Of a stretch of 64,000 bases of DNA, positions 1,008 to 64,000 are shown in pieces. Position 1 is the first letter of the stretch. Each line of letters starts with the position of its first letter. Location: NCBI GenBank assembly GCA_009777415.1, contig WRLX01000002.1, positions 231 through 64,230 of the forward strand, read 5' to 3'. This DNA comes from Oscillospiraceae bacterium. GTDB taxonomy: Bacteria > Bacillota > Clostridia > Oscillospirales > Ruminococcaceae. The notes beneath the pieces were generated by a model. That model ran no database searches, was not told the origin of the DNA, and saw only the letters and a program-made list of their open reading frames with translations. A program made the translations under genes and the position numbers.

Positions 1008-1103
1008 CAGAAAGGGTAAGGGTAAAATTTTGAAAGTGAATCTGCGTAAATGCGGAAAACGAAACTTTCAAAAGACGCTTATTCAGAAAGGGCAAGGGTA
1101 AAA
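1008..1103 (+). repeat. RBS-associated repeat family A (box-core-box, period 76)
   Basis: CAGAAAGGG(T/C)AAGGGTAAAA at 1008 and 1084 flank core TTTTGAAAGT-GAATCTGCGTAAATGCGGAAAACGAA-ACTTTCAAAA; ends 2 nt before rplB ATG. Confidence 0.95.
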
Positions 1104-4605: not shown

Positions 4606-4684
4606 GAGTTTGAAAATTAAGAAAGGGCGAACACCGTGTGCAAACGATTCATTGTTGTGCAGGGTAGGCGCATGGTCATAAAAG
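4606..4684 (+). repeat. Repeat family B copy 1, before rplN
   Basis: GTTTGAAAATTAAGAAAGGGCGAACACCGTGTGC...TTGTGCAGGGTAGGCGCATGGTCATAAAA; aligns by eye with 50974-51058 and 53201-53284. Confidence 0.7.
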
Positions 4685-6858: not shown

Positions 6859-6946
6859 ATTTTGCCGTGAAGAACTGACTAAACACAGGAGTTACTGAGT
6901 CGGTTAGGCAGAATTAGATAGTATAACGATTTATACGGGGATAACG

Positions 6947-7027
6947 AAGTTTGAAAGTAAATCTGCGTAAATGCGGAAAACGAGGCTTTCAACGGCACAT
7001 TTGTGCAGAAGGGGCATGGGTAAAAAA
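6947..7027 (+). repeat. Family A single unit before rplF
   Basis: AAGTTTGAAAGTAAATCTGCGTAAATGCGGAAAACGAGGCTTTCAACGGCACATTTGTGCAGAAGGGGCATGGGTAAAAAA then ATG. Confidence 0.95.
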
Positions 7028-7589: not shown

Positions 7590-7668
7590 AAAAGTTTGAA
7601 CTCAATCCGTTGTGAATTGTGAAAATTAACTTTTATGGCGAATTTGTGTAGGAGGTCATTGGTAAATT
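7590..7668 (+). repeat. Degenerate family A unit before rplR
   Basis: AAAAGTTTGAA...GAAAATTAACTTTTATGGCGAATTTGTGTAGGAGGTCATTGGTAAA colinear with the consensus. Confidence 0.65.
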
Positions 7669-8606: not shown

Positions 8607-8687
8607 AAGGTTTGGAAGTGGAATTTGCGTAAGTGCGGAAAACGAAACTTTCATGATGTTTTTGTGCAGGAAGGGAATGGGTGAAAA
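8607..8687 (+). repeat. Family A single unit before rpmD
   Basis: AAGGTTTGGAAGTGGAATTTGCGTAAGTGCGGAAAACGAAACTTTCATG...TTTGTGCAGGAAGGGAATGGGTGAAAA. Confidence 0.9.
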
Positions 8688-10890: not shown

Positions 10891-10918
10891 TAAATGCGGA
10901 AAGGGCAAGAGTAAAATA
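10891..10918 (+). repeat. Family A remnant (core fragment fused to box) before adk
   Basis: TAAATGCGGAAAGGGCAAGAGTAAAA then ATG. Confidence 0.65.
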
Positions 10919-12914: not shown

Positions 12915-13004
12915 TTTGTGCAGAAAAAATTTGGAAAAAATTGAAAGTAAATCTGTGTAAATGCTTTCAGTCGCACGTTTGTGCAGAAAGGGCATGGGAA
13001 AGAA
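12915..13004 (+). repeat. Family A unit with internal deletion before rpmJ
   Basis: TTTGTGCAGAAA...TTGAAAGTAAATCTGTGTAAATGC[del]TTTCAGTCGCACGTTTGTGCAGAAAGGGCATGGG. Confidence 0.88.
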
Positions 13005-13547: not shown

Positions 13548-13608
13548 AAGGTTTGAAAGCATGCGGCTTTCAAACGCACGTCTGTGCAGAAAGGGCATGG
13601 GTAAAAAA
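13548..13608 (+). repeat. Minimal family A unit before rpsK
   Basis: GTTTGAAAGC-ATGCG-GCTTTCAAAC perfect 10-bp hairpin, then GCACGTCTGTGC and the box. Confidence 0.9.
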
Positions 13609-15471: not shown

Positions 15472-15742
15472 CGAATTTCTACGGTTTATCGATGCAATAT
15501 TGGAAAGGGTTCAACACTGAATACCAATCCTTGTGCGAGCGGAAAACGAATTTCTGCGGTTTATTGACACAATATTGGAAAGGGTTCAACACTGAATACC
15601 AATCCTTGTGCGAGCGGAAAACGAATTTCTGCGGTTTATCGACACAATATTGGAAAGGGTTCAACACTGAATACCAATCCTTGTGCGAGCGGAAAACGAA
15701 TTTCTGCGGTTTATTGACACAATATTGGAAAGGGGTAAATGT
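15472..15742 (+). repeat. 75-bp tandem array (~3.5 copies) before rpoA; divergent family A variant
   Basis: CGAATTTCT recurs at 15472, 15547, 15622, 15697; each unit has GCGGAAAACGAA and GGAAAGGG; the last box serves as the rpoA SD. Confidence 0.93.
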
Positions 15743-16738: not shown

Positions 16739-16785
16739 GAAAAATCAGTTTATGGCACTTTTGTGCAGAAAGGGCATGGTTAAAC
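16739..16785 (+). repeat. Partial family A unit before rplQ
   Basis: TTTATGGCACTTTTGTGCAGAAAGGGCATGGTTAAAC then ATG. Confidence 0.85.
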
Positions 16786-20903: not shown

Positions 20904-20909
20904 ACAGAA

Positions 20910-20943: not shown

Positions 20944-20954
20944 GCACGACAAAA

Positions 20955-21048
20955 GCTATTTCCCTACGGCGGCATTATCCGCATCAGGTCATAGGTCGAA
21001 ACGTCAATCCGTTTCCTCTCAGCCGAAACATCAGCTCCCTGTAATTGT
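20955..21048 (-). ncRNA. TPP riboswitch
   Basis: GGGAGCTG...GGCTGAGAGG...GACCTGATGCGGATAATGCCGCCGTAGGGAA. Confidence 0.93.
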
Positions 21049-21104
21049 TATTTTAACACACTTTTGGCAGCTTGTCAAGCGTTTTTTACAAATTTTCACA
21101 AAAT

Positions 21105-26018: not shown

Positions 26019-26191
26019 AGAAAGGGCAAGGGTAAAACTTTGAGAATCAGTCCATGGTAAATGGGAAAACGAAACTTTAATAAAGAAATTGTATAGAAAG
26101 GGCAAGGGTAAAACTTTGAGAATCGGTCCATGGTAAATGGGAAAACGAAACTTTGATAAAGAAATTGTATAGAAAGGGCAAGGGTAAAAAT
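26019..26191 (+). repeat. Family A array (2 cores, 3 boxes, period 76) before recA
   Basis: AGAAAGGGCAAGGGTAAAA at 26019, 26095, 26171. Confidence 0.95.
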
Positions 26192-29448: not shown

Positions 29449-29588
29449 TGTGTAAATACGGAAAACGAAACTTAAAAAGCATACTTGCTTAGAAAGGAAA
29501 AGGGTAAAAACCTGTAAAGAAAATCTGCGTAAATGCGGAAAACGAAGCTTAAAAAGCATACCTGATTAGAAAGGAAAAGGGTAAAAGA
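29449..29588 (+). repeat. Family A array (~1.7 units, period 77)
   Basis: AGAAAGGAAAAGGGTAAAA at 29491 and 29568; core AAATCTGCGTAAATGCGGAAAACGAA. Confidence 0.92.
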
Positions 29589-31632: not shown

Positions 31633-31732
31633 TCTTTTTACCCTTGCCCTTTCTGCACAAATGTGCCGTTGAAAGCTTCGTTTTCCGCATTTACGCAGAT
31701 TTACTTTCAAACTTTTTACCTTTGCCCTTTCT
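31633..31732 (-). repeat. Family A unit (box-core-box, period 78)
   Basis: Reverse complement is nearly identical to the rplF copy. Confidence 0.95.
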
Positions 31733-31767
31733 TCATAAAAATAAAGTGTTAAAACAAAAATAAAGTG

Positions 31768-32049
31768 TCAAACTAAATCAATTCCGTAACCGTAATAATT
31801 AAGCGGCTCTCTTAGTGGCGGGTGGTTTAAAATTGCCGATTGTTGTTCATGTGAACCAAAATATGGCTCGAATGAACCCATGTTATATGAACCCGGGTAC
31901 GAACCCATATAATATGAGCCGTACAAGTTAAACGAGCCGTTAAAGCTTAACCCGAACAAGCCCGACTGAAAATCACAATTCAGCGGTTCGGTATTTCCTG
32001 CTTTTTCATGCATCAAATCAATGTAATCTAACCAATGATAACTGTTCAT
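31768..32049 (-). CDS. Small GS[YF]-repeat peptide ending GYGIDLV
   Basis: GSF-GSY-GSY-GSY-GSF-GSH repeats; preceded by a repeat box with SD. Confidence 0.75.
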   Translation of the reverse strand: MNSYHWLDYIDLMHEKAGNTEPLNCDFQSGLFGLSFNGSFNLYGSYYMGSYPGSYNMGSFEPYFGSHEQQSAILNHPPLREPLNYYGYGIDLV

Positions 32050-32056
32050 TTTTAAA

Positions 32057-32304
32057 CTTTTTACCCATGCCCTTTCTGTATGAATGTGTTAAGAAATCTT
32101 CGTTTTCCGCATTTCCGCAGATTTATTTTCAGGCTTTTTACCCATGCCCTTTCTGTATAAATGCGTTAAGAAATCTTCGTTTTCCGCATTTCCGCAGATT
32201 TATTTTCAGGCTTTTTACCCATGCCCTTTCTGTATAAATGCGTTAAGAAATCTTCGTTTTCCGCATTTCCTCAGATTTATTCTCAGGCTTTTTACCCATG
32301 CCCT
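32057..32304 (-). repeat. Family A array (3 cores, 4 boxes, period 77)
   Basis: TTACCCATGCCC on + at 32061, 32138, 32215, 32292. Confidence 0.96.
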
Positions 32305-32312
32305 ATTCGGGA

Positions 32313-33407
32313 TTAGAAGCCTTTTGATAGCTCTTTAAACTTCATGGAGGCTTTGTCGTTAGAAACTGCTCTGTAAACTGCCGAATTAAAAAGCAGAAGC
32401 AGTTTAAGCAATCCGAGCGGAAAACTTTCCCGTAAATCGAGTATGTTGTCCTCGCTTGCGTGTAAGACTTTTTGGTAGTTTTCAATAATATACGAAACTT
32501 CCTTAATTTCATCAGGGGGGCAACCCATGCGTGTCATTATGCGGACTGCGTAAATCCTTGCGCGTTCGGCGTGTCCGTAGTAAAACTCCTGCCCCGAGGG
32601 AGTTTTTGAATAACAGTCCGGCTTGCCCAACTCATGGAACAGCAACGCATAACGCAGACTTAAAATCGGAGCAGAGCAACTGACGCACTTAAAAGTGTGT
32701 TTGGCGGAATACGGCGGACGCAACAACATTTGCAATTCAGGGATAATTGCGGTAAAGACATCGCTGTACTCTGCCAAAACTGCACCCGCGTTTCGTTCGA
32801 TAAGCACGTTTTTCAAGTTTTTTGCATCTTGGCTTTCCGCAGAGTAGGCAGGACGTGCCATATCACGAATATTGTTCTTAATCAGCCGCTTTGCCGTATC
32901 GCTTATGGTAAACTCGCCGCTTGACTGCCATGCCAACGCCGGAAGAATATCGTGGTAATTAAAGCTGCGATTTTTCCCGATTATAAAGTTTAGTCTGCCG
33001 CTGTTCAAGTCATCTAACCCGTTGAACGGGTCAAACACGGCTTTATCGGCTTTAGGGCTGTACGCGATTCCGTCAAAGGTGAATGCGTGTTCGTTTGCAA
33101 GCTCGGATTCAAGCTCGGCAAAGCTCGTTATGCTAACCGCTACTCCCAGTATAGTCACGATTAGCTCACCTTTGTCCAGATTGTCCTCCATACAGTTATA
33201 GCCATCGAAAATCGCGCAAATCCGCGGCATTTCCGCATTAGTCATTACATCAAAGTCAAATGCTTTTATCTCGTCAAGATGAGTTTGCCCCTTTATCAGC
33301 ACTCGTACACATTCACCGTGAATATATGATTCATAACCATGCTCACTTAGCCTGTCTAATATTTCATTAACCTGTTTCGGCAAATTGAGGTTCATCGGCT
33401 TCTCCAT
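32313..33407 (-). CDS. Degenerate tRNA nucleotidyltransferase / poly(A) polymerase-HD family protein
   Basis: YIHGECVRV..DFDVMTNA, DPFNGLDDL, IIPEL, LLFHELGKP, FYYGH; start uncertain (33407 or 33395). Confidence 0.7.
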   Translation of the reverse strand: MEKPMNLNLPKQVNEILDRLSEHGYESYIHGECVRVLIKGQTHLDEIKAFDFDVMTNAEMPRICAIFDGYNCMEDNLDKGELIVTILGVAVSITSFAELESELANEHAFTFDGIAYSPKADKAVFDPFNGLDDLNSGRLNFIIGKNRSFNYHDILPALAWQSSGEFTISDTAKRLIKNNIRDMARPAYSAESQDAKNLKNVLIERNAGAVLAEYSDVFTAIIPELQMLLRPPYSAKHTFKCVSCSAPILSLRYALLFHELGKPDCYSKTPSGQEFYYGHAERARIYAVRIMTRMGCPPDEIKEVSYIIENYQKVLHASEDNILDLRESFPLGLLKLLLLFNSAVYRAVSNDKASMKFKELSKGF

Positions 33408-33543
33408 ATTTTTTTGTATAGCAGACCTCCGCAAAAATACGCTCGTGTTTAGTTTTCGCGGAGGTCTATTATATACTATATCACGCTTTCAAATAAATTT
33501 CAACATATTTTCTGTAAAAAATAAGAAAATTAAAAAATCGCTT

Positions 33544-34823: not shown

Positions 34824-34976
34824 TATTTTACCCATGACCTTTCTGCACAAACGTGCCATAAAGTTTTATTTTCCCATTTACGTAGATTTATTTTCAAACT
34901 TTTACCCATGACCTTTCTGCACAAACGTGCCATAAAATTTCATTTTCCCATTTACGTAGATTTGTTTTCAAACTTT
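34824..34976 (-). repeat. Family A array (2 units, period 74); 5' end overlaps the upstream stop codon
   Basis: Fills the whole alpha-beta intergenic space; AAAGTTTGA reads K-V-stop of the alpha gene. Confidence 0.93.
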
Positions 34977-36023: not shown

Positions 36024-36075
36024 TATTTTACCCTTGTCCTTTCTGCACAAATGTGCTAAAAAATTTCATTTTCCT
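36024..36075 (-). repeat. Partial family A unit
   Basis: GGAAAATGAAA...GCACATTTGTGCAGAAAGGACAAGGGTAAAATA then ATG. Confidence 0.85.
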
Positions 36076-37006: not shown

Positions 37007-37135
37007 CAAAAAAATTTTTACACAAAATATAAAAAAGTATTGAAATGTTAAATAAATTATGTTATAATGTACATAATTTACATAAATTATTTAAATGTAT
37101 GTTATAACATACCAAAATTTAGGAGGATACTCACC

Positions 37136-40100: not shown

Positions 40101-42253
40101 GCGGCTCAATGTCGTTCCTGCAAGGCTCAAGCGGCGAGCGTTCTGTTCAGATGAGCGCAAACCCGCGGACTATAACGATTATCCAAAGCGGAAACAGCAA
40201 CGGCATGGATATTAAGTTAGCGGATTTGAACGCAAAACCTAACCACTCATACACGTTTGAAATTGGCGGAACGTACAGCGGCTCACAATTGAGGTTTACT
40301 AAAGAAGGCGGCACTGCAAGGGCTTTGACAACCAATCCCGCTACCGTTTCGGGCGGCACTTTCTCATTTACTCATACTGCCGATTATGCTACGATTGTTT
40401 CGGACCTTGCCGATAATGCTCAGGCAAGATACCGAATAAGCAGCCCTTCGGGAATTATCGGTACAATGGTGATTAACAAGATTATAGTTACCGAAATACC
40501 TTTAGGGGGCGGAACAACTCCCGCAGTGACCACCGTAACTCCCGCGGTGACTACAGCAACTCCCGCAATAACTACAACCGTGCCCGTCACAATCACAACC
40601 GTGCCTGTGACAACTTCATCATCGGTTGTAACGACTGCTGCGACTACGACTGCACAAACGAGATTTACGATTACTTTTAACCATAACTACTCGGGAAGCC
40701 CCTCAAGCTTTAACGTGCAGACAAACGGAACAGGCAGGATTAACTCTGCCGACTTCCCCGCCGCACCTACGAGAACAGGGTATACCTTTGCAGGTTGGTT
40801 TGATACCTCGTCTTCAAGCGGAGGAAACCAAATAATCGCCGGTTCATCAACGGGAACGCAGTTTAACTCTAATACGACTGTTTTTGCGAGATGGACTGCT
40901 GTATCGGCTACAAGGTATACAATCACGTTAAATCCGCAAAGCGGGGCTGTTTCACCGACAACAATACAAACTCGTGACGCTAATGCAAACGGAGTTGCCA
41001 CTCTTCCGACGGGCGAACTCCCTATTCCTACAAGAAACGGATACACTTTTGTAGGTTGGTTCACGTCTGCGAGCGGCGGAACTCAAATAACAGACGGTTC
41101 GGGGGGTTCTACTTTTACCGCTAATACCACTATTCATGCGAGATGGGTTGATAATTCCACCGGGGGCGGGTTTAGGGACATTACCGCTTCGCAGTTAGTT
41201 AGTGAAATCGGTGTCGGTTGGAATTTGGGTAACACCCTTGACGCATATCCGAATGAGTCTTCATGGTCAGTACCGAATACTACAAAAGCGACTATTGACG
41301 GAGTAAAAGCCGCCGGATTCAATACAATCAGAATCCCGATTACATGGCATCCGCATATTAGCGGGAGCGGCTCAAGCGCGACTATCAGCTCTTCCAGAAT
41401 GAACCGCGTTAAACAAATTGTGGACTGGGCAGTTGCAAACGATATGTATATCATAATCAACACTCACCATGATGAAGACATTTTCTCAGTTACCACAAGT
41501 AGCTCTACCCCTGCGAATACTTTGTCCGCTGTTTGGACACAGATTGCGAACACATTTAAGGATTATAACGAGAAGTTGATTTTTGAGGGGCTTAATGAGC
41601 CGCGCGACACTAAAGGCACAAAGGATAACAGCGACGATGACTGGTACGGCACTACTACGCTGCACGAAAGACTTAATACTCTTAATCAGGCTTTTGTTTC
41701 CGCAGTAAGAGCTACAGGCGGCAACAACGCGAGAAGAGTTCTTATGGTTCCCACTTATGCGGCAAGCGGGCAGGCGTGGAATAATCAAAGCCCTTTCCAC
41801 GGTTTCAAAAAGCCTACCGATACTGTTGCAAACAAATTGGTTCTTTCGGTTCACAGGTATGAGCCTAATGAATTCACATTGTATGCGCAGAGCAGAACGT
41901 GGTCGGAATCAGGTGTAAGAACCGCTCTCGAGCTTATTGCAAATGCATCTAAAACAAGCTCGACAAACGTAAATCTCGGCAATTACAGTATTACAATGCC
42001 TGGATTGGGTATGCCGATAATTCTCGGCGAATGGGGTGCGACTAACCAAAACAACGAGGCAGAAAGAGCGAGATATGCCGAGTTTTATGTCAAAGAGGCG
42101 ACAAGGCTCGGAATGAGAACGGTTCTGTGGGATAACGGCGTTTCGGCAACCGCAACGGGCAGTGAAATGCACGCGTATATTAACAGGAGTAACGGCAATA
42201 TTCACTCAAATGCTGTGTCGATTATTGAGGCGATTAAAAAAGGTCGCGGATAA
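37136..42253 (+). CDS. Secreted multimodular double-GH5 (GH5_4-like) endoglucanase with two dockerin-like modules, Thr-rich linkers and two InlB B-repeat-like domains
   Basis: Two sets of GWNLGNT/IRIP/HH/NEP/GEWG/WDNG; GDLDGNGTVDIFD dockerin-like pair; PTRxGYTFxGWF twice; SD AGGAGG before ATG 37136. Confidence 0.9.
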   Translation: MKTMKKRLISVMLTCAVFLSVLPAITGFSEVGGVSDSPSATLLSESLPFRCGDLDGNGTVDIFDTLETLKYIVNMNSTITHILATWDGVDNRAKSRRASILTTAKREGLDPDDIPDTVGPDIFDTLETLKYIVNMDTQEMCENGCDWDSPDENGCTAIGCNNSDCLEPVVVDLGTVLPPPTGEVSSDFRNLTAKQLVSEMRAGWNLGNTFDAHRGGQEIGHSLVTINGTAGGVRAVETMWLPEEIQIPGQTAGRIANATTRTLIREVRRQGFDTIRIPVSWYKAVDPNDDYKIHPSFMARVKEVVDWAVNEDMYVILNVHHDDYIMPISFVDMEAAANPQGRRPAQPIKAEDKEFTEMYLRRIWEQISEVFNNDYNEKLIFEGVNEPRTIGSIGEWSGGTDHEREMVNRLGEVFVETVRDSGGNNAYRILMVPTYAAASSDSAFNGFRIPADTEENTSEYTYTSPTGVVTESESSHKIAISVHAYVPGPFALAATTVHWRADVPSDTGPIDAALNRVRNNADRMGAAVILGEWGSPNQCLGEGACADSEGGCKRVNCVRSNTEARAAHARYYVRAARERGMVTSWWDNGAIIPAEKTTNPSHTYALFTRQSIAPNMQGVHVSPRLNLPWIIESILCGAGPERDKLDTGNTLSNQFNTDAVLGDYSASAAQAYDIFDVLEILKSIVGMSELTDFEKEVYTFNGNEGSPNIFDALEILKDIVGMLNPPLVRNMPKIPPTESDGLATSKAGGAWIETDGRWRPMSDEWNRDIHWNPPGAGMDWVENEDGTWESPNGDITTTSAATSAATPASSSQATIQTTPVSTTILTTTTPVTVTTNNATPPPVPTSAATTVSATFPNTTTVTTVLTPTTTTSIPIVTTAHSTTLAITPTSPPITTTPFTPTSTPSVTTVVTPAVTTTITPAVTTTIVQTTVNPVVTTTAPTSATTAAGTTVSAIATTSTGAVTTGAINPTGVLYDMQNDPDLDKARSGGGSMSFLQGSSGERSVQMSANPRTITIIQSGNSNGMDIKLADLNAKPNHSYTFEIGGTYSGSQLRFTKEGGTARALTTNPATVSGGTFSFTHTADYATIVSDLADNAQARYRISSPSGIIGTMVINKIIVTEIPLGGGTTPAVTTVTPAVTTATPAITTTVPVTITTVPVTTSSSVVTTAATTTAQTRFTITFNHNYSGSPSSFNVQTNGTGRINSADFPAAPTRTGYTFAGWFDTSSSSGGNQIIAGSSTGTQFNSNTTVFARWTAVSATRYTITLNPQSGAVSPTTIQTRDANANGVATLPTGELPIPTRNGYTFVGWFTSASGGTQITDGSGGSTFTANTTIHARWVDNSTGGGFRDITASQLVSEIGVGWNLGNTLDAYPNESSWSVPNTTKATIDGVKAAGFNTIRIPITWHPHISGSGSSATISSSRMNRVKQIVDWAVANDMYIIINTHHDEDIFSVTTSSSTPANTLSAVWTQIANTFKDYNEKLIFEGLNEPRDTKGTKDNSDDDWYGTTTLHERLNTLNQAFVSAVRATGGNNARRVLMVPTYAASGQAWNNQSPFHGFKKPTDTVANKLVLSVHRYEPNEFTLYAQSRTWSESGVRTALELIANASKTSSTNVNLGNYSITMPGLGMPIILGEWGATNQNNEAERARYAEFYVKEATRLGMRTVLWDNGVSATATGSEMHAYINRSNGNIHSNAVSIIEAIKKGRG

Positions 42254-42275: not shown

Positions 42276-42450
42276 AGAAAGGAATGGGGTAAAAGTTTGA
42301 AAATAAATCTGCGTGAGTGCGGAAAACGAAACTTTAAGTGGCACATTTGTGCAGAAAGGTATGGTGTAAAAGTTTGAAAATAAATCTGCGTGAGTGCGGA
42401 AAACGAAACTTTAAGTGGCACGATTGTGCAGAAAGGTATGGTGTAAAAAT
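42276..42450 (+). repeat. Family A array (2 cores, 3 boxes, period 77)
   Basis: AGAAAGG at 42276, 42353, 42430. Confidence 0.96.
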
Positions 42451-48722: not shown

Positions 48723-48823
48723 TGTGCGGGAAGGGTATAGGTAAAAACATTGAAAATAAATCTGAGGTTGTGCGGGAAACGCACTTTTATGGCTATTCAA
48801 CGCCGGAAGGGAATGGTGTAAAA
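48723..48823 (+). repeat. Family A unit (box-core-box, period 76)
   Basis: GGAAGGG at 48729 and 48805; core TTGAAAATAAATCTGAGGTTGTGCGGGAAACGCACTTT resembles the 55228 variant. Confidence 0.88.
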
Positions 48824-50694: not shown

Positions 50695-50729
50695 GGCTAA
50701 AATGAGGGAATTCATTTCCCTCATTTTAG
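50695..50729 (+). terminator. Terminator hairpin interrupted by a MITE
   Basis: GGCTAAAATGAGGGAA / TTCCCTCATTTTAG; the stem continues (GCC) on the far side of the MITE. Confidence 0.75.
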
Positions 50730-50887
50730 AAGCTGTGTTCATAGTCAATCGCACCGCATAAACGGCAAATTTTCCGCCATACTGCGTTGAAATTTTATTA
50801 AATATCAGTGGATATTCGCAAAAATTTCGCCTTGTCTGACGAAAAATTTGCTCGTTTCTACGGCACACCGCCTATGAACACAGCTTC
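50729..50887. mobile_element. 159-bp MITE with 16-bp TIRs and TTA target duplication
   Basis: TTA-GAAGCTGTGTTCATAG...CTATGAACACAGCTTC-TTA; nested internal inverted repeats. Confidence 0.85.
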
Positions 50888-50973
50888 TTAGCCTGACGAA
50901 GACACATTGTTTGGCAAAACAACTTCCAAGTTTTTAGTGGTAATGGAGTAGTAGGCTCTGCAACCCGCTGTAT

Positions 50974-51058
50974 AAGTTTGAAAAATAAGAAAGTAAGAAC
51001 CACCATGCCGCGAGTTTAATTGGGTTTTGTGCAAGGTTGGGCGGCATGGTCATAAAAA
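50974..51058 (+). repeat. Repeat family B copy 2 (no downstream gene)
   Basis: AAGTTTGAAAAATAAGAAAG...CACCATGCCGC...TTGTGCAAGGTTGGGCGGCATGGTCATAAAA. Confidence 0.7.
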
Positions 51059-51093
51059 CGGACAATAGGCATTTGACTATTGTCCGTTTTTAT
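51052..51093. terminator. Hairpin overlapping the xerC stop codon
   Basis: ATAAAAACGGACAATAG / CTATTGTCCGTTTTTAT 17-bp inverted repeat. Confidence 0.7.
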
Positions 51094-52117
51094 CGGTTTT
51101 GTTCACATCAGACAGTGGATTATTATTTATTGCCTGTCTCATTTGTTCATTCGCCACATGAGTATAAATTTGGGTAGTGCCGAGGTTCTCATGACCGAGG
51201 ACTTCTTTTAATACACGAATGTCCACGCCGTTGCGATACATTAAAGTCGCGGCGGTGTGTCTTAATTTATGAACCGAGAATCCGAGACCGTCCAATCCGC
51301 AGACTCGGAGCTTTTCGGCAATAATCTGCTCGACCCGCCTCCCGGTAATGCGGGTGTACCGTTTGCTCAGGAACAACGCCTTTTCATGTCTTGCTCTCTC
51401 GTTCTCGTCGCAAAGCTGATTCCGCTTATCAATATATTTTTCATGGGATAATGCGCAGGCGGAATTAAGGTAAACAATCCGCTCTTTGTTCCCCTTGCCT
51501 GTTACCCTTATGTAATACAACGGCTCACCCGTAATCGCACAAAGCTCTTTCTTATAGTCCTGCAAATTAAGTCCCACAAGCTCATTGAGCCTCATCCCGC
51601 AGTTGAGAAAAAAAGTCATAATGCAATAGTCGCGTACAGCCATCCAGTTCTCGCTGTCATAGTCGCAGGTTGAAAGCAATTGCATCGCTTGCTCCAAAGT
51701 GAGCGATTTTGGGAGGGGCGGTTTTGCACCGGGCATTTCAAGGTTTTGCGCAGGGCTGACCTCAAACCATTGCTTGTTATTTGTCAGGTATTTGAAAAAC
51801 TGCCGAATTGCAACGGCTCTGCGCGCTCTTGCTTTGAGCGTATTGCTCCTTTCCCCTGCAAGATAATGCAGAAATTCAAGAACATCGTAAAGCACGACGC
51901 CTTTAATAAGCTCGGCGGGAAAGTCGTCAACCTCAATTTCCTCAAAGTCCACATCTTTTGGCGCGAGATTGTGCTTGACCTTCAAAAAACGCAAAAAGGA
52001 CTTTAAATCATGAAAGTAGCTTATTACAGTGTTTTGAGAACGCCCCTTTATAGTCGAAAAATAATCGAGGAATTCCCGCAGAAATTGAGGAATCTCGTTT
52101 TTATTATAATTATACAA
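51077..52117 (-). CDS. xerC: Tyrosine recombinase, XerC/XerD-like
   Basis: RD...GMRLNEL, GKGNKER, HKLRHT, LGHENLGTTQIY. Confidence 0.85.
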   Translation of the reverse strand: MYNYNKNEIPQFLREFLDYFSTIKGRSQNTVISYFHDLKSFLRFLKVKHNLAPKDVDFEEIEVDDFPAELIKGVVLYDVLEFLHYLAGERSNTLKARARRAVAIRQFFKYLTNNKQWFEVSPAQNLEMPGAKPPLPKSLTLEQAMQLLSTCDYDSENWMAVRDYCIMTFFLNCGMRLNELVGLNLQDYKKELCAITGEPLYYIRVTGKGNKERIVYLNSACALSHEKYIDKRNQLCDENERARHEKALFLSKRYTRITGRRVEQIIAEKLRVCGLDGLGFSVHKLRHTAATLMYRNGVDIRVLKEVLGHENLGTTQIYTHVANEQMRQAINNNPLSDVNKTDKNGQ

Positions 52118-53284: not shown

Positions 53285-54139
53285 ATGGTTAGAAGGTTAA
53301 TTTCGGCGGGTGTAGGAATTGTAATAGGGGTTTTAATCCTGTGGTTGGACATGAAAGAGTTGGTCTTGATTGCCGTTGCGGCTTTATCGGCAACGGCTGT
53401 CTATGAAATACTCATTGCGACAAAATATATAAAAAACCGCGCGGGGGCTGCCGTGAGCTTGGTTTTTGTATTTGCCGTGCCTTTTATTGTAGGCTATGAT
53501 ACAACAAGAGGATTTATGAATGCCCGATATGTTTCGTTTGCTTTTATAATCGGCTTGTTTATAATCATGCTGTTTAACCACAAGCGGGTTAAATTTGCCG
53601 AAGTCGCGCTGATGACATTTGTATCGCTGTGTATACCCTTTTCTCTTTCGTGTATAGTCTTTATGTACAACAGTTTTCCGCTTCACAGGACTTTTGTGTT
53701 GGTTTACGCGCTGACTGTCACATGGATAAGCGACTCGGGCGCGTATTTCACGGGGACTTTTTTAGGCAAACATAAAATGTCGCCCGGTATAAGCCCTAAA
53801 AAAACATGGGAAGGATTTGCCGGGGGGGTGGCAAGCGCGGCATTGTTCGGTTTTTTATTGGGAAAAGGCTATGAATGGTCGGCGATTTTGTTCTTTAGCG
53901 AAGGATTGACTTTTAAAGTAGACGTGTTGTTTCTCGCACTGTTGGCAGTTCCATGCTCAGTGTTGGGTGCGTTGGGGGATTTTTCAGCATCTATCCTAAA
54001 GCGGGAATGTGCGGTAAAGGATTTCGGAAGTATAATGCCGGGTCACGGCGGGGTTCTTGACAGATTTGACAGCATTTTGTTTGTAATCCCGTTTGTCTAC
54101 TTGAGCTTTGAACAATACTTCCCTATTGTAAATTTATGA
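53285..54139 (+). CDS. cdsA: Phosphatidate cytidylyltransferase
   Basis: SPKKTWEG, KDFGSIMPGHGGVLDRFDS. Confidence 0.95.
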   Translation: MVRRLISAGVGIVIGVLILWLDMKELVLIAVAALSATAVYEILIATKYIKNRAGAAVSLVFVFAVPFIVGYDTTRGFMNARYVSFAFIIGLFIIMLFNHKRVKFAEVALMTFVSLCIPFSLSCIVFMYNSFPLHRTFVLVYALTVTWISDSGAYFTGTFLGKHKMSPGISPKKTWEGFAGGVASAALFGFLLGKGYEWSAILFFSEGLTFKVDVLFLALLAVPCSVLGALGDFSASILKRECAVKDFGSIMPGHGGVLDRFDSILFVIPFVYLSFEQYFPIVNL

Positions 54140-55218
54140 AAGAAAAACAAATTGTATTACTCGGCTCAACGGGTTCAATCGGCGCACAGACATTAAGCGT
54201 TGCGAAAGCGCATAACATTAAAGTAGTTGCTTTGTCCGTGCATTCTAATACGGCACTTTTAGAAGAATTAAGACGTCAATACAATGTTGAACCCGACAAC
54301 ACTTGCGTATCAAGCGAAAACCCCGATAAGTTATGTGAGTTGGCGGCGATAAAAGACTGTACTGTAGTAAACGCAATTGTGGGAAGCGCGGGACTTAAAC
54401 CGACCCTTGCCGCGATTGAAGCCGGAAACCCGGTTGCCCTCGCCAATAAGGAAGCGTTGGTGGCGGGCGGCGAGATTGTTATGGCTTTGGCGAACGTGAA
54501 CAATGTCCCCGTGATTCCCGTGGACTCGGAACATTCGGCGATTATGCAGTGTTTATCGGGAACAACGAACAAAATTCATAAAATAATACTCACCGCGTCC
54601 GGCGGGGCATTTTACGGCTATACTAAAGAGCAGTTGAAAACTGTTACAAAAGAGCAAGCGTTACAGCACCCTAATTGGAGCATGGGGGCGAAAATCACGG
54701 TTGACTCGGCAACAATGATGAATAAGGGGCTTGAGTTAATTGAGGCTATGCACTTGTTTAACACCGATGAGTCACAAATTGAGGTTGTAATTCACCCGCA
54801 AAGTATAATTCACTCGGCAGTGGAGTTCACTGATGGCACTGTAATTGCGCAATTAAGTGTTCCCGATATGCGGTTGCCCATCCAATACGCGCTGACTTAT
54901 CCGGAAAGGTTGCCATCGCCCGCTAAACGGCTGTCATTCGCTGAATTGGGGAAATTGAGCTTTGCCGCACCCGATTATGACACTTTTCCGTTGCTCCGCT
55001 TGGCGAGGGAGGCGGCGAGACTCGGCGGCAATGCACCCTGCGCACTTAATGCGGCGAATGAAGCTGTAGTATCGCTGTTTTTAAACAGTGATGACAAAAT
55101 CGCGTTCCACGAAATCCCGCAAACGGTTGAAGAAATCTATAATAAAATTGAAAAGACCGAGAATATCAGCCTTGACATAATTGAAAAAACCGAAAACGAA
55201 GCTGTGGCACGCCTTTGA
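54136..55218 (+). CDS. dxr: 1-deoxy-D-xylulose 5-phosphate reductoisomerase
   Basis: LGSTGSIG, LANKE, PVDSEH, HPNWSMGAKITVDSA. Confidence 0.97.
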   Translation: MKEKQIVLLGSTGSIGAQTLSVAKAHNIKVVALSVHSNTALLEELRRQYNVEPDNTCVSSENPDKLCELAAIKDCTVVNAIVGSAGLKPTLAAIEAGNPVALANKEALVAGGEIVMALANVNNVPVIPVDSEHSAIMQCLSGTTNKIHKIILTASGGAFYGYTKEQLKTVTKEQALQHPNWSMGAKITVDSATMMNKGLELIEAMHLFNTDESQIEVVIHPQSIIHSAVEFTDGTVIAQLSVPDMRLPIQYALTYPERLPSPAKRLSFAELGKLSFAAPDYDTFPLLRLAREAARLGGNAPCALNAANEAVVSLFLNSDDKIAFHEIPQTVEEIYNKIEKTENISLDIIEKTENEAVARL

Positions 55219-55227
55219 AAGCGTGTT

Positions 55228-55550
55228 AGGAAGGAATGGTGTAAAAGTTTGAAGATAAATCTGAGGTTGCGCGGAAAACGCACTTTCACGGCTCGTTGGA
55301 GCAGGAAAGGAATGGTGTAAAAGTTTGAAGATAAATCTGAGGTTGCGCGGAAAACGCACTTTCATGGCTCATTGGAGCAGGGAAGGAATGGTGTAAAAGT
55401 TTGAAGATAAATCTGAGGTTGCGCGGAAAACGCACTTTCACGGCTCATTGGAGCAGGGAAGGAATGGTGTAAAAGTTTGAAGATAAATCTGAGGTTGCGC
55501 GGAAAACGCACTTTCATGGCTCATTGGAGCAGGGAAGGAATGGTGTAAAA
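55228..55550 (+). repeat. Family A array (4 cores, 5 boxes, period 76) before rseP
   Basis: GGAATGGTGTAAAA at 55233, 55309, 55385, 55461, 55537. Confidence 0.97.
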
Positions 55551-56630
55551 ATGTCTGTGTTGATAGCTATTGTGGTATTGTGCGTAATAATCCTTGTGCA
55601 TGAATTGGGGCATTTCGGGGCGGCAAAGCTCTTTAAGATGAATGTCCCGCAGTTTAACTTAGGAATGGGACCGCTTTTATTAAAAAAGAATTACAAAGGA
55701 ACACAATACGGGCTGAGACTGTTTCCAATCGGTGGCTCGGTCTTGCTTGGCGAGGACGATACCGAAGAGAGCGACGACCCCAATGACTTTCGCAATAAAC
55801 CTGTTTGGCAAAGGATAATAGTAATCGGCGCGGGTGCGTTCCTTAATTTGGTGCTGGGGCTGATTTTATGTATAATTATTTACTCGGTTGAACCAATTCC
55901 CACTACTGTTGTGTCGGCATTCGGGGAGGAAGCGGTCAGCAATACGGGTACAAGTGCATTGAGGGTGGGCGACCGCATTGTTAAAGTCAACGGCATGAAC
56001 ATTGTTTCGGCATCGGAGATATTCTACAGGATGGATAACTCTTTGGCAAAAGAAGGTGCAAGCGGCAATTTCGCCGTATATGAATTTGTTGTAATCCGGA
56101 ACAAAGAAAGGGTGTTATTGCCCGAGGTAAAATTTGCGGCATCGCCCAACCCGTCCGACAGAGGGGGGATGGTCTACACGCGGGACTTTTGGATTGAACC
56201 CGCCGAAAAGACTTTCCTTAATGTTTTAAACTACTCGGCGCGAAACGCAATCGGTATGGGCAGGATTATTTGGCTTTCGCTCATTGATATAATTATGGGG
56301 ACTTACGGGCTTAACGAAATATCCGGCCCGGTCGGGATTGCGGGGGTTGTCGGCGATTTAACTGCACAGGCGGTAAATATTAAGGAAGCGGTTATGACAG
56401 TTGTGTCACTGTCCGCGCTTATTACGATTAATTTGGGAATGGTAAACCTCTTGCCGATTCCCGCGCTTGACGGGGCGAGGATTTTGTTCTTGAGTGCGGA
56501 GGGGATTCGCCGAAAACCCGTAAATCCCGCCGTTGAGGGAATGATTCACTTTGTAGGGTTCGCGCTTTTAATGCTGTTAATCCTTGTTGTGACCTTTAAT
56601 GATGTAAGGAAGATGATTGTCGGTGGATAA
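55551..56630 (+). CDS. rseP: RIP metalloprotease RseP (M50)
   Basis: HELGH, GPVGI, NLLPIPALDG. Confidence 0.93.
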   Translation: MSVLIAIVVLCVIILVHELGHFGAAKLFKMNVPQFNLGMGPLLLKKNYKGTQYGLRLFPIGGSVLLGEDDTEESDDPNDFRNKPVWQRIIVIGAGAFLNLVLGLILCIIIYSVEPIPTTVVSAFGEEAVSNTGTSALRVGDRIVKVNGMNIVSASEIFYRMDNSLAKEGASGNFAVYEFVVIRNKERVLLPEVKFAASPNPSDRGGMVYTRDFWIEPAEKTFLNVLNYSARNAIGMGRIIWLSLIDIIMGTYGLNEISGPVGIAGVVGDLTAQAVNIKEAVMTVVSLSALITINLGMVNLLPIPALDGARILFLSAEGIRRKPVNPAVEGMIHFVGFALLMLLILVVTFNDVRKMIVGG

Positions 56631-57642
56631 ACGTATTGTTAAAGTCGGGGATTTGAATTTCGGCGGCGGCGAGATTTTTGTGCAATCCATGCTGAGTCTC
56701 CCCGTTGATGACATTGAGGGCAATGTATTACAGGCGGTGAGATTAGCCGAGGCGGGATGTGACGTAATAAGGCTCGCAATCCCTACGATAGCCGATGTGC
56801 GGTTGCTCCCCGCATTAAAACAAGCTGTACAAGCTCCGATAGTCGCCGATATACATTTTGACTACAAAATCGCGGTAGAATCGGTTATAGCAGGTGCGGA
56901 CAAAATTCGGATTAATCCGGGGAATATCGGCGATGCCGACCGTGTAAAGGCGGTTGTCACCGCTTGCAAAAACGCGGGAATCCCTATCAGAGTCGGCGTT
57001 AATTCGGGTTCGCTGAAAGGCGGAAGTATTGCTGAATCGGCGATTGAAAATGTCAGACTTCTTGAGAGGTTTGATTTTAATGATATAGTCGTATCGGTTA
57101 AATCATCGAGCGTTACCGCGACAATTGCGGCTTACCGTGAATTATTCGGGCGTATTCCTTACCCGTTGCACTTGGGAGTTACCGAAGCGGGTACGTATAA
57201 AAAAGGTGTAATTAAATCGGCAATCGGGATAGGCGCGCTTTTATGCGACGGAATAGGTGACACTATCAGAGTTTCGCTGAGTGCCGACCCTGTATTTGAG
57301 GTTGAGACGGCGATTGATATATTAAAAGCAGTGGGCAAGCGCAAAGGAGTAGAGATTATCTCCTGCCCCACCTGCGGCAGATGTAAAATAGATGTAGTTT
57401 CGTTAGCCGAGAAAGCGGAACAGATTGTTCAAGGCATAGACAAGCCGCTTAAAATTGCCGTAATGGGCTGTGCAGTAAACGGCCCGGGTGAATGTAAGGA
57501 TGCTGATTTCGGAATTACCGGCGGCGACGGAGTTGGACTGATATTTAAAAAAGGCGCAATAGTACGCAAGGTTGAGGAATCCGGGTTATTGCTTGAATTG
57601 ATGGAAATTTTAGAAGAGGAAAGGGCAAGGGTAAAAGAATGA
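56617..57642 (+). CDS. ispG: HMBPP synthase
   Basis: VADIHF, RINPGN, HLGVTEAG, GDTIRVSL, SCPTCGR, MGCAVNGPGE. Confidence 0.96.
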   Translation: MSVDKRIVKVGDLNFGGGEIFVQSMLSLPVDDIEGNVLQAVRLAEAGCDVIRLAIPTIADVRLLPALKQAVQAPIVADIHFDYKIAVESVIAGADKIRINPGNIGDADRVKAVVTACKNAGIPIRVGVNSGSLKGGSIAESAIENVRLLERFDFNDIVVSVKSSSVTATIAAYRELFGRIPYPLHLGVTEAGTYKKGVIKSAIGIGALLCDGIGDTIRVSLSADPVFEVETAIDILKAVGKRKGVEIISCPTCGRCKIDVVSLAEKAEQIVQGIDKPLKIAVMGCAVNGPGECKDADFGITGGDGVGLIFKKGAIVRKVEESGLLLELMEILEEERARVKE

Positions 57643-57720
57643 GATTAATTCGAAGTGAATGGGAAAACGAGTTTTTATGGCACGTTTGTGCAGAAAGGGC
57701 AAGGGTAAAAGAATGAGATT
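57619..57720 (+). repeat. Family A unit with a 28-bp direct repeat that includes the polC ATG (period 74)
   Basis: GAAAGGGCAAGGGTAAAAGAATGAGATT at 57619 and 57693. Confidence 0.93.
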
Positions 57721-61849: not shown

Positions 61850-63061
61850 ATGAGGTTAGCGGAATGGGTTTTTGAACCACATGAGGAAAATGAGAGTCTT
61901 GATATTTTTTTGCAAATAGTCCGCCTTTTACACGATTTGGGGAAAGGGGCGGGGACTGTTTCACCTGCGTTTTACGAGATTGACGATGACAACGATGTGA
62001 CTTTTGTTGACTCAAAGTCATTCGGGGAGTTTGAGTCGCCAGAGGATTACTCCGCGCCGGAAAGCGCGAACAAGAATGTGGGAGGCAATGGCGAAAAGCG
62101 AGATGTATTTTCGCTCGGCATACTGTTGCACTTTATTCTTTACCAAAAACTCTGCCCGATTGACAGGAATGTTGCTTTTACAGGTAAGTCTTTCTTAAAA
62201 TCCCGCAAAAAAGTTATCGAAACCTCGGCAATTAAAGCAGACGACTCAAAACAGGCATCGCTGTTAATGGAGCGTATGAGCTCTTATAATCCCGAATCTC
62301 GGCCAACATTAAAGGAAATTTTGGCAGTTTTGCAGTCAAATATGTGCAGATTTGGGATTGTCCGCGAAAATGTCCTGTCTAAGGAGCGGTACACCGAAAT
62401 AATCCGCTGTTTTTCCGAGAGAGATTCTTACAGATATACTCCCGAAAAAGAATATACCGTTGACTTGGTGACAATCGCGCCGCTTTCGTGCGAACCGTTG
62501 TTAATCCCGTTTAGGTTGGTCAAAAAGCAATATATACTCCCGGTGGCATACGGCAGTGAGGGGCGTTGGCACTGTGCCGAAAAAAAATCCGACGCACCCG
62601 ATTTCGAGGATTTTGCAAGCCCGGCAAACCATGAGAGTGCTTCCGATTTAGCGGGAGTCCATAAAGCGACTGCGGCATTGTACTTTTGCGACGCGGTTTA
62701 CGGGATTGAAGGGCATACTCTTTTTTGCGAGACTGACGGATATGCCTATCAAATGGGGCTTTATGTGCATAGCTACGGCAACGAGAGCAAAGTGATAAGC
62801 ATTTTTAAAGGGGGGGAGGTAGTCGTCCCCGAAAGGCTTGAAGCGCGAATCCTTTCGATATTGAGGGCGGGTTCCAAGGCTGTGTATGACTTGTTTTGCT
62901 TTGTATTATACGGCAAAAGCAATCCCGCCGTTATTAAGACAATCAATGACCTGTTCCCTGAGGCAGTACGCATTTATCATTTAGACGACAATGATATACT
63001 AAAAGGCGCGTCACTGTATTTGAACAGCCAAGGCAATAAAAAGAATCCGCTTTATAAATAA
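61850..63061 (+). CDS. Hypothetical protein with a degenerate protein-kinase C-lobe
   Basis: YSAPE...DVFSLGILL...RPT subdomains VIII-XI present; no GxGxxG, VAIK, HRD or DFG. Confidence 0.55.
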   Translation: MRLAEWVFEPHEENESLDIFLQIVRLLHDLGKGAGTVSPAFYEIDDDNDVTFVDSKSFGEFESPEDYSAPESANKNVGGNGEKRDVFSLGILLHFILYQKLCPIDRNVAFTGKSFLKSRKKVIETSAIKADDSKQASLLMERMSSYNPESRPTLKEILAVLQSNMCRFGIVRENVLSKERYTEIIRCFSERDSYRYTPEKEYTVDLVTIAPLSCEPLLIPFRLVKKQYILPVAYGSEGRWHCAEKKSDAPDFEDFASPANHESASDLAGVHKATAALYFCDAVYGIEGHTLFCETDGYAYQMGLYVHSYGNESKVISIFKGGEVVVPERLEARILSILRAGSKAVYDLFCFVLYGKSNPAVIKTINDLFPEAVRIYHLDDNDILKGASLYLNSQGNKKNPLYK

Positions 63062-63065
63062 TTAT

Positions 63066-63238
63066 CAGAAAGGGCAAGGAACAAACTTTGAGAATAAATC
63101 TAACAAATGCGGAAAACGAGGCTTTTAAAGTTACGTTTGTGCAGAAAGGGCAAGGAACAAACTTTGAGAATAAATCTAATAAATGCGGGAAACGAGGCTT
63201 TTAAAGTTACGTTTGTGCAGAAAGGGCAAGGGTAAAAG
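63066..63238 (+). repeat. Family A array (2 cores, 3 boxes, period 76)
   Basis: CAGAAAGGGCAAGG at 63066, 63142, 63218. Confidence 0.95.
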
Positions 63239-64000
63239 ATGAAGTATGATGTTTTTATGAGAACCTGTACCCATGACGGCGATTATGACTGGGTAAACCG
63301 ACCGGATTATATGCCGGAAAATTTACACGAGGCTTTCGGCAGTGTACTTGCGCTGTGCGAAAATCCGGCATTTGATGAGCTGAGTTGGGATGACTGGGGT
63401 TCTAATTTCTTTTATGCGAGAACCGACAGGTGTTGTTTTTTGGCGAGAATTGTCAAAACAAAATACATCGGCTCAAATAACCAAAGCATAATTTCGTTTG
63501 AGGGAATATCGGTCAAGGCGCAAAACGAAAACTATTTGTTTTACAACATCCCGAGCTTGATTAACGACCTGCTTCCCCCCGCGAAAAGTTTTCGCGCCAC
63601 GTTTGAGGAGGAAGGGTTTGTGTCGGAGGTTTTTGAGGCTGACCCGCTTTTGAACCCGTTTGACGGCTACAGGATTCCCGCCGAGGTTCACCCTGCGGTG
63701 ATGAATAATGCCGCCTACCGCAATCTTCTTAAATTTACAGCTTTTACCGAAAAGCCGACAGGGTTTATTTTCGGGAAAAATGCGAAAGCCTTTTCCGATT
63801 ATTTGGATATTGATAAATTGGGGATGAGTTATGTTTTCGATTTCCAAAACCCGGATTCGCCCGATGTAAACGAGAATGCGTTTTATGATAATTATACGCC
63901 GCTTGTCTGCGAATACAAAAAGCCTGTTCCGACCGGCTCTGATAAAGTCACTATTTGTCTTTTTGTACAGGAAACAAAAAATAACCACCATAAGTACAGA
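63239..64000 (+). CDS. Hypothetical protein, runs off the window end (not in ORF track)
   Basis: ATG directly after the repeat box; open frame MKYDVFMRTCTHDGDYDWVNRPDYMPE... to the end of the window. Confidence 0.75.
   Translation, partial: MKYDVFMRTCTHDGDYDWVNRPDYMPENLHEAFGSVLALCENPAFDELSWDDWGSNFFYARTDRCCFLARIVKTKYIGSNNQSIISFEGISVKAQNENYLFYNIPSLINDLLPPAKSFRATFEEEGFVSEVFEADPLLNPFDGYRIPAEVHPAVMNNAAYRNLLKFTAFTEKPTGFIFGKNAKAFSDYLDIDKLGMSYVFDFQNPDSPDVNENAFYDNYTPLVCEYKKPVPTGSDKVTICLFVQETKNNHHKYR

What the first reader, a model, noticed from the sequence alone, without database searches (positions are those of the whole stretch)
55228..55550. n cores between n+1 SD boxes, amplified in tandem with locus-specific sequence
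Seen: arrays start and end with the ~20-bp box: 1 core/2 boxes (1008, 31633, 48723, 57619), 2/3 (26019, 42276, 63066), 3/4 (32057) and 4/5 (55228). Copies within a locus are near-identical, but loci carry private variants (for example CTGAGGTTGCGCGG at rseP and TCCATGGTAAATGGG at recA). Unit length stays at 74-78 bp despite this divergence. Inference: the geometry fits either integration of a small circle at a box, or target duplication followed by local expansion and contraction through the direct repeats. Copy number could vary in the population and tune expression of downstream genes.
Basis: partly seen in the sequence, partly recalled or inferred. Interest (0 to 1): 0.8.

Follow-up and report, generated by a model that had tools for sequence, protein, structure and literature searches.

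The report
Start-codon-seeking tandem repeat family
A roughly 76-base repeat sits directly in front of about one gene in five in this uncultured Clostridia-type bacterium and ends in a ribosome-binding-like box; it is likely a selfish element that copies itself into start codons and then duplicates locally, much like the MIRU repeats of mycobacteria, whose way of moving appears to be unresolved.

Summary
The array is real: 4 cores and 5 boxes at 55228-55550, ending at the rseP ATG. It belongs to a genome-wide family (283 core-bearing loci) found only in some genomes of one genus, and orthologous sites are filled or empty between species. Two corrections. The n/n+1 geometry holds for 9 of 20 window loci and 64 of 189 arrays genome-wide: the 3' end is fixed at the start codon, while the 5' end is cut at many points. 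The 'private' variants are subfamily marks shared with other loci. Each unit junction mimics a translation start (box, 2 nt, TTG). In 24 listed cases that TTG opens the downstream frame; at cysS 4 of 4 relatives have ATG there. No reciprocal products were seen, which argues against simple circle integration. Best reading: a MIRU-like cassette copied in one direction from a tandem or circular template, primed at the start codon (inferred), then duplicated and patch-converted locally. No mobilising enzyme was found. Copy-number variation and expression tuning are untested. This scan has reported MIRU-like start-codon repeats in at least 10 other genomes, so this is a new variant of a known kind with unusually informative junctions.

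The parts
55228..55550 (+). rseP array: 4 cores between 5 boxes, period 76; the last box abuts the ATG
55249..55548 (+). chain of four 23-codon TTG mini-ORFs, one per unit, each stopping inside the next box; the last stop ends 2 nt before the rseP ATG (translation not shown)
54136..55218 (+). dxr, upstream gene; its last ~27 nt resemble a decayed partial unit (55192-55227), which may be chance
   Evidence: 5 of 150 controls extend this far
55551..56630 (+). rseP, target gene; no array in 29 of 29 orthologous loci of relatives
1008..1103 (+). 1 core, 2 boxes, before rplB
6938..7025 (+). 1 core, 1 box; starts at the unit start after native leader sequence (ATG 7028)
7591..7667 (+). diverged single unit before ORF 7669
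8607..8686 (+). 1 core, 1 box
10895..10916 (+). solo box before ATG 10919
12936..13003 (+). internally shortened unit, 1 box
13555..13606 (+). 5'-truncated unit (0.64) before ATG 13609
15472..15740 (+). diverged array of 3.5 periods (75 bp) before rpoA, C/T/C/T dimer pattern
16749..16785 (+). 5'-truncated unit (0.49) before ATG 16786
26019..26189 (+). 2 cores, 3 boxes, before recA (ATG 26192)
29449..29586 (+). 1.8 units, starts inside a core
31636..31739 (-). 1 core, 2 boxes plus a few upstream bases; near-consensus young copy
32059..32308 (-). 3 cores, 4 boxes (first box weak)
34826..34976 (-). 2 cores, 2 boxes (74-bp subfamily)
36026..36074 (-). 5'-truncated unit (0.66)
42276..42448 (+). 2 cores, 3 boxes
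48723..48823 (+). 1 core, 2 boxes (first weak); same subfamily as the rseP units
57618..57710 (+). 1 core, 2 boxes before polC; the unit begins with the gene's own first 12 nt, and the ispG stop lies inside it
63066..63237 (+). 2 cores, 3 boxes
4608..4684 (+). sister cassette (F3 type): same GTTTGAA start and a box-like end, different core, before ATG 4685
50976..51058 (+). sister cassette (F3 type) with no ATG after it; an exception

Best explanation
This is a dispersed ~76-bp cassette family that ends at start codons in a Shine-Dalgarno-like box and is likely a non-autonomous, MIRU-like selfish element that is copied into start codons in one direction and then duplicated locally. Shown: each unit runs from GTTTGAA to the box; the box plus the next unit's TTG has the same spacing as box plus ATG; the 3' junction is fixed at the start codon and the 5' junction is variable; orthologous sites are filled or empty; arrays are locally homogeneous but sometimes mosaic. 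Inferred step 1: a DNA end at the target's start codon anneals to the unit junction of a tandem or circular template, which mimics 'SD, spacer, ATGAA'. Inferred step 2: copying runs upstream through box and core and stops at variable points, preferring short matches to the native SD or spacer. This keeps or replaces the native SD and sometimes overwrites ATG with TTG. Inferred step 3: the new box (and often a coupled mini-ORF) keeps the gene translated, so insertions are tolerated even in essential genes, and the site can be hit again. Inferred step 4: slippage or unequal exchange builds arrays, and short conversion tracts mix subfamilies. Whether the template is RNA or DNA, and which enzyme acts, is not shown.
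For: Position: of 283 core-bearing loci, 258 end at a start codon, 8 run into a sister cassette, 4 hit a contig end, 8 lack a 3' box and 5 were scored as having no start. 173 of 294 loci other than solo boxes have exactly 2 nt to the start. By a stricter rule 76 of 3000 random positions pass. Polarity: 5' ends of 189 arrays are box start 64, last hairpin 48, core interior 42, unit start 19, inside box 16, plus 112 sub-unit loci. An SD word lies just upstream of 9 of 19 unit-start arrays against 23 of 154 that start at the box or further upstream (p=0.002). The upstream gene's stop lies inside the array in 38 of 189. Start overwrite: 24 long ORFs begin with the unit's TTG, 6 of them behind a box with no core; at cysS 4 of 4 relatives have ATG at that codon. 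Mobility: 4 sites are filled in a relative and empty here, one (L027) with the native SD replaced; rseP is empty in 29 of 29 relatives; subfamily clusters of 25, 13 and 5 loci exist; 55 of 377 units have a match of 95% or more at another locus. Repeat use and conversion: 14 of 103 multi-unit arrays are mixed. Sister cassettes share the ends. Box genes rise from 28 of 240 to 73 of 240 across codon-adaptation quintiles, with no strand-proxy bias (p=0.49). Analogy: MIRUs insert at start codons with a coupled ORF (PMC12548453, passage).
Against: No mobiliser: RVT_1 is in 2 of 9 carriers and absent from G000, Y1 in 1 of 6 tested, weakly, and the TnpB-type domain in 1 of 9. 5' truncation could partly be later decay rather than incomplete copying, and boundaries are noisy: 22 of 150 controls extend 5 nt or more by chance. 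No nucleotide-level empty site from a very close strain was available; the best pair has 86% protein identity. One of the 24 TTG cases (C23) is probably a sister cassette read in frame, and only 3 were checked against relatives: guaA gave ATG in 1 of 2, and folD gave an ATG 1-2 codons upstream in 4 of 5. The codon-adaptation trend may reflect gene age rather than expression. Newer units are not significantly on the 3' side (10 against 4, p=0.18). SD function of the box is predicted only.
Confidence: 0.65

Rival explanations
1. One reading: a small circle carrying one core and one box integrates by a single crossover at a resident box or SD, giving n cores between n+1 boxes, with later local expansion.
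For: The box start is the commonest single 5' boundary (40 of 301 at exactly 19 columns). The two boxes of single-core loci share private bases (82 of 121, 27.8 expected). Foreign cores sit between locally typed boxes in mixed arrays such as C25 and C147. Junction-containing inserts need a circular or tandem donor.
Against: 125 of 189 arrays do not start at a box and 112 loci are shorter than a unit. No reciprocal junctions were seen (0 of 18; 0 of 6 loci). Box sharing is not significantly above the nearest-core locus (62 shared, p=0.08). Naive genes have ordinary SDs, not boxes. A 76-bp double-stranded circle is very strained (general knowledge). The 5 tyrosine recombinases in G000 were not examined for a link.
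Confidence: 0.15
2. A conserved cis-regulatory RNA leader (riboswitch-like or protein-binding) that hides or frees the SD and was kept by selection as a global translation control, tuned by copy number.
For: Strict co-orientation and spacing. A weak consensus hairpin pairs a pyrimidine run with the SD. G-U exceeds A-C in candidate stems, e.g. 127 against 38 in the last hairpin. Enrichment at high codon-adaptation genes.
Against: No Rfam match. No consensus fold for 242 units, and top covarying columns are subfamily marks, not pairs. None in the cross-genome alignment. Double-sided changes are no more than in shuffles (354 of 500). Targets differ between species and are functionally unrelated. 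112 loci are fragments. The G-U excess can come from C-to-T bias on the sense strand (inference).
Confidence: 0.1
3. A conventional MITE or REP-type element moved in trans by a transposase, with start-codon placement arising by purifying selection.
For: The genome is rich in real MITEs (209 hits for one TIR family), has two IS110 genes, and the element is patchy across the genus.
Against: No terminal inverted repeats and no constant length. Neutral intergenic landings should be common but at most 13 of 283 loci lack a start or box. The IS110 loci show no repeat at their flanks by eye. The TIR MITE inserts into the unit rather than carrying it. Y1 is absent from G000 and 4 of 5 other carriers.
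Confidence: 0.07
4. The tandem copies are an assembly artefact of short reads.
For: The genome is a 162-contig assembly, and no reads could be laid, so exact copy numbers are unverified.
Against: Copies differ by patterned SNPs. Tandem arrays occur in other assemblies, e.g. L011, L014, L030, L047 and G051. Mixed arrays combine unlike units.
Confidence: 0.03

Closest known systems
MIRU / MIRU-VNTR (mycobacterial interspersed repetitive units; Supply et al. 1997, not held; read through passages of PMC12548453 and PMC3184786)
   Same: 40-100 bp dispersed unit, apparently mobile, inserted at start codons in operons, with an internal ORF coupled to the target gene; empty and filled sites exist. Tandem copy arrays of MIRUs are recalled, and implied by the MIRU-VNTR typing citation.
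   Different: No homology shown. About 280 loci against 40-50. Carries a strong SD-like box. No 4-nt direct repeats and no imperfect TIRs. Fixed 3' and ragged 5' junction. Overwrites ATG with TTG. The -4 overlap occurs in only 67 of 289 units. Several unrelated cores share the ends.
Neisseria REP2 and Borrelia IR-A/IR-B (passages of PMC3184786)
   Same: TIR-less repeat immediately upstream of genes that supplies a ribosome-binding site.
   Different: REP2 is 120-150 bp, has 23-26 copies, carries a promoter and ATG, and is tied to a co-regulated gene set. Here no promoter was found at rseP, the arrays are tandem, and the ATG is the gene's own.
STAR elements of Staphylococcus (PMC3532100, abstract and outline only)
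   Same: Interspersed intergenic direct repeats that expand and contract with locus-specific sequence; abundance does not follow species relatedness.
   Different: The abstract describes no lock to start codons and no SD. Here cores are homologous and fall into subfamilies shared between loci.
Pneumococcal BOX elements (PMC3049150, passages)
   Same: Dispersed repeat with a variable tandem module that can affect downstream expression.
   Different: BOX has boxA/boxC ends with TIR similarity to ISSpn2; the paper reports repeats over-represented between convergent genes. This element is confined to gene starts.

Membership tests
MIRU | Unit of about 40-100 bp, dispersed in many intergenic copies | tested here: met
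   Periods 73-81; 283 core-bearing loci
MIRU | Inserts at start codons; empty and filled orthologous sites | tested here: met
   258 of 283 at starts; 4 filled/empty pairs; rseP empty in 29 of 29
MIRU | Internal ORF coupled to the target gene with -4 spacing | tested here: inconclusive
   215 of 289 mini-ORFs reach the box, 67 of 289 overlap as NTGA; omega 0.71-1.68, stop-creating changes 13 against 21.2 and 1 against 3.5 expected
MIRU | Tetranucleotide direct repeats flanking filled sites; imperfect TIRs | tested here: not met
   5' junctions are variable; the two ends show no inverted repeat
MIRU | Sequence homology to mycobacterial MIRUs | not tested
   No MIRU sequence was compared; the family was found only within one genus
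MIRU-VNTR | Copy number varies between strains | not testable with these tools
   One genome per species; no run listed
MITE | Terminal inverted repeats and a fixed target-site duplication | tested here: not met
   contrast with the true TIR family
REP/BIME with RAYT | Y1 (HUH) transposase in the host | tested here: not met
   0 in G000 (87% complete); 1 weak hit in 5 other carriers
Riboswitch / structured cis-RNA | Rfam match or compensatory base pairs | tested here: not met
CRISPR array | Unique, unrelated spacers between repeats | tested here: not met
   Cores are homologous: 97% within and 70% between loci
Retroelement (SINE-like, target-primed) | Fixed 3' end, variable 5' truncation, junction microhomology | tested here: met
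Retroelement (SINE-like, target-primed) | A reverse transcriptase co-occurring with the element | tested here: not met
   RVT_1 in 2 of 9 carriers and 36 of 108 genomes
IS91 / IscB-type HUH elements | Y2 transposase or IscB in carriers | tested here: inconclusive
   0 of 5 each, but the control genomes did not ring either

The most novel reading that the evidence does not exclude
A bacterial SINE-like system: short cassette RNAs (several unrelated cores sharing the same ends) are copied into DNA primed at the start codon of actively translated genes, without a dedicated element-encoded reverse transcriptase. This rewrites the ribosome-binding site of a fifth of the genome, and sometimes the start codon, and would also explain how MIRU-type repeats move.
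Probability: 0.17. Interest if true: 0.85.

Novelty: new variant of a known kind. Interest (0 to 1): 0.5.

Why it matters
[quoted passage not shown] This family offers about 300 junctions in one genome, with a fixed 3' end, ragged 5' ends, overwritten start codons and mosaic arrays, so rival mechanisms make different, testable predictions. It also shows a selfish repeat replacing translation-initiation regions at scale: 238 of 1197 genes and 32 kb, including rplB, recA, polC and rseP. Practically, units read in frame give false N-terminal extensions in gene calls (ORFs 55524, 26153, 30778-31710 and 57659).

Tried and rejected
Rfam: no match for the repeat at gathering scores; one chance hit outside the arrays at E up to 10. 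Conserved RNA fold: rejected as unproven. Functional peptide: omega near 1 in all frames. Promoter or terminator at rseP: none. Mobilisers: RVT_1, Y1 (17, 63), TnpB-type (109) and IS110 (18-22) show no link; Y2 (75) and RRXRR (108) were blank with silent controls; 5 integrases (64) were not followed up; paralogue clustering of 2709 ORFs showed no transposase-like family among the first 40 of 59 clusters by eye. The 165-bp TIR MITE was considered as a parent and rejected. Sequencing runs: none was listed. L041 was not used as an allele pair, because it looks joined at a MITE. Earlier notes: none for this genome or sequence. Papers: 10 searches found no description of this family; subscription papers, including Supply 1997, are not held, and no supplements were read. 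The outputs were cut, so only the visible parts are used. One search crashed in its last block, which was rerun.

Full report
Observation. The window is C2:231-64230 of a 1.78-Mb, 162-contig, 87% complete genome. PolC and the gene content point to a Clostridia-type Firmicute (the class is my inference). The array at 55228-55550 lies between dxr (stop at 55218) and rseP (ATG at 55551), with 4 cores and 5 boxes, period 76 and 97% matches. The other eight listed loci also have the stated counts. The window holds 11 more loci that do not fit n/n+1, so 9 of 20 fit.

A genome-wide family. A refined profile finds 542 hits. Boxes number 687 against 1 in the reversed genome. They group into 435 loci: 141 solo boxes, 74 box-core-box, 70 core-box, 61 with 2 cores and 3 boxes, 18 with 2 cores and 2 boxes, and rarer forms. 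The unit runs from GTTTGAA to a 19-nt box with consensus AGAAAGGGCAAGGGTAAAA. Of 283 core-bearing loci, 258 end at a start codon, 8 at a sister cassette and 4 at a contig end; 8 lack a 3' box and 5 were scored as having no start. 173 of 294 loci other than solo boxes have exactly 2 nt to the start. A box marks 238 of 1197 non-overlapping long ORFs, and loci ending at an ATG cover 32,069 bp. Predicted pairing with a recalled 16S tail motif is stronger for box genes (median -11.2 against -7.0 kcal/mol). That is a prediction, not proof of use.

Polarity. The 3' end is fixed and the 5' end is not. Among 189 arrays with at least one unit, 64 begin at the box start, 48 in the last hairpin, 42 inside the core, 19 at the unit start and 16 inside the box; 112 further loci are shorter than one unit (2 of 303 dropped at contig ends). 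Noise is limited but real: 128 of 150 planted controls extended 4 nt or less and 5 extended 30 or more. When a unit starts cleanly, a native SD tends to survive just upstream (9 of 19), whereas box-start and deeper starts rarely have one (23 of 154; p=0.002). A separate count gave 30 of 61 against 121 of 1203 controls. In 38 of 189 arrays the upstream gene's stop lies inside the array.

The junction mimics a translation start. After each inner box comes a TTG at the spacing of the final ATG (272 of 289 units). In 24 listed cases the last box is followed by this TTG running into a long ORF, 6 of them with no core at all; one (C23) is probably a sister cassette. At cysS, 4 of 4 relatives have ATG at the same codon. 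At guaA 1 of 2 do, and at folD 4 of 5 have an ATG one or two codons upstream (these three gene names, and rpsC, trmD and dut below, are my labels from the translations). Conversely, 8 of 231 inner boxes (6 loci, including polC at 57618) are followed by the gene's own first 7-12 nt. The two classes never occur together as a reciprocal pair (0 of 18 and 0 of 6), although later homogenisation could hide that. I infer non-reciprocal copying from a tandem or circular template, primed at the start codon.

Local amplification and mixing. Within-locus identity has a median of 97% against 70% between loci, and 207 of 237 units are closest to a neighbour. The rseP array and the 15472 array show C/T/C/T columns, which fits a 1-2-4 duplication. 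The variants are subfamily marks: the rseP and recA motifs each recur at two other loci, and clusters of 25, 13 and 5 loci exist. Older-looking loci have slightly more copies (rho -0.17, p=0.018). 14 of 103 multi-unit arrays are mixed, some with breakpoints inside a unit or a foreign core between local boxes; the newer part is 3' in 10 and 5' in 4 (p=0.18). In 59 single-core loci the two boxes share 82 of 121 non-consensus bases (27.8 expected), but not significantly more than with the nearest-core locus (62; p=0.08). This fits contraction from longer arrays, a tandem donor or box duplication alike.

Mobility and range. No array precedes rseP in 29 of 29 relatives. rpsC (G046), trmD (G045), dut (G046) and L027 (G046) are filled in a relative and empty here; at L027 the native SD is replaced and the insert starts mid-unit. 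In the ribosomal operon of 11 genomes, hits were 16 in G051, 10 in G000, 4 in G046, 2 in G077, 1 each in G024 and G003, and none in five others; rplB is filled in G000, G046 and G051 with lineage-typical sequences. Profile searches hit 16 of 108 genus genomes at E 0.001 and 11 of 108 at 1e-4, seven of them with 32 or more capped matches, and 0 of 150 genomes in a family-wide draw. The closest relatives by RecA (G050 87%, G047 86%, G052 84%) mostly lack the core, while most carriers are at 65-72%. On a RecA tree of 21 chosen genomes (20 of the 107 relatives), well-supported branches force at least 3 changes. Horizontal spread is plausible, but G012 carries a sister cassette (22 matches), and G047 and G050 show box-like ends, so an ancestral system with lineage-specific bursts is not excluded.

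Sister cassettes. At least three other cores share the GTTTGAA start and a box-like end, and sit at start codons or chain with this unit: F3 (14 hairpin matches in G000, 68 in G024), F4 (27 regex hits) and F5 (8). The ends, not the core, seem to define the system (inference).

What it is not. No Rfam family matches. 242 units give no consensus fold, and their covariation is subfamily signal. A weak SD-pairing hairpin appears in one alignment (-0.78 kcal/mol) without excess double changes and vanishes across genomes. G-U exceeds A-C in candidate stems, which suits an RNA phase but also strand-biased mutation. Mini-ORFs mostly stay open (215 of 289) with a mild stop deficit but no protein-level selection; at rseP they form four 23-codon ORFs, the last ending 2 nt before the ATG. 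Predicted unpairing of the last box is 0.52-0.53 for 1-4 units, so folding gives no support for tuning. Box genes rise with codon adaptation (28 to 73 of 240 per quintile; p=5e-7) and show no strand-proxy bias, which hints at a link to expression. No mobiliser co-occurs with carriers.

Comparison. It works like a MIRU: PMC12548453 (passage) says MIRUs appear mobile, insert at start codons and couple an ORF to the target. PMC3184786 (passages) gives 40-100 bp, 40-50 copies, 4-nt direct repeats and imperfect TIRs, and describes REP2. The direct repeats and TIRs were tested and not met, so I do not file it as a MIRU member. STAR (PMC3532100, abstract and outline) shares locus-specific expansion, and BOX (PMC3049150, passages) shares a variable tandem module. 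PMC3110155 (passages) added nothing. Ten paper searches found no account of this family. Unchecked notes of this scan report MIRU-like start-codon repeats in at least 10 other genomes.

Verdict. Real, partly as described. A new variant of the MIRU-like kind, notable for its scale and its mechanistic junctions. Interest 0.5.

Noticed in passing
window 50725-50892; G000-wide: A ~165-bp MITE with long terminal inverted repeats and TA flanks (209 profile hits, including related variants) inserts into the 76-bp unit at TA on C116, C157 and C114.
   Followed up: partly
window 4608-4684 and 50976-51058; G024, G012: Sister start-codon cassettes F3, F4 and F5 share the unit's ends but have unrelated hairpin cores; some carry nested palindromic modules.
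   Followed up: partly
G000 C9 near 7528 (dnaK-like gene): A truncated unit holds tandem 23-bp sub-repeats; the G014 orthologue also has a truncated unit.
   Followed up: no
window 37067-42253: 1728-aa protein with two GH5 cellulase stretches, Listeria-Bacteroides repeats and Thr/Pro-rich linker repeats.
   Followed up: no
window 51077-52117: Tyrosine recombinase with an N-terminal SAM-like domain, next to the MITE and an F3 copy; a link was not tested.
   Followed up: no
window 20343-21052: TPP riboswitch (20944-21052, minus strand) upstream of a thiamine transporter; ordinary.
   Followed up: no
window 29589-33434 and 61850-63991: Clusters of poorly annotated ORFs (zinc ribbon, DUF6734, weak kinase domain), several preceded by arrays.
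   Followed up: no
L006 (G000 C141) and L007 (C153): Two IS110-family transposase genes; the one in L006 is split across frames.
   Followed up: partly
G000 C65, C22, C58, C89, C51, C36, C4: An 11-member paralogous family of large, probably secreted proteins; C17, C21, C102 and others hold prophage-like genes.
   Followed up: no
L157-L166 (G050, G046, G051, G053 ribosomal operons): Heptamer-like tandem repeats fill several intergenic gaps in relatives.
   Followed up: no
L041: This metagenome contig matches G000 C54 and C57 in separate parts around a MITE and may be mis-joined.
   Followed up: partly
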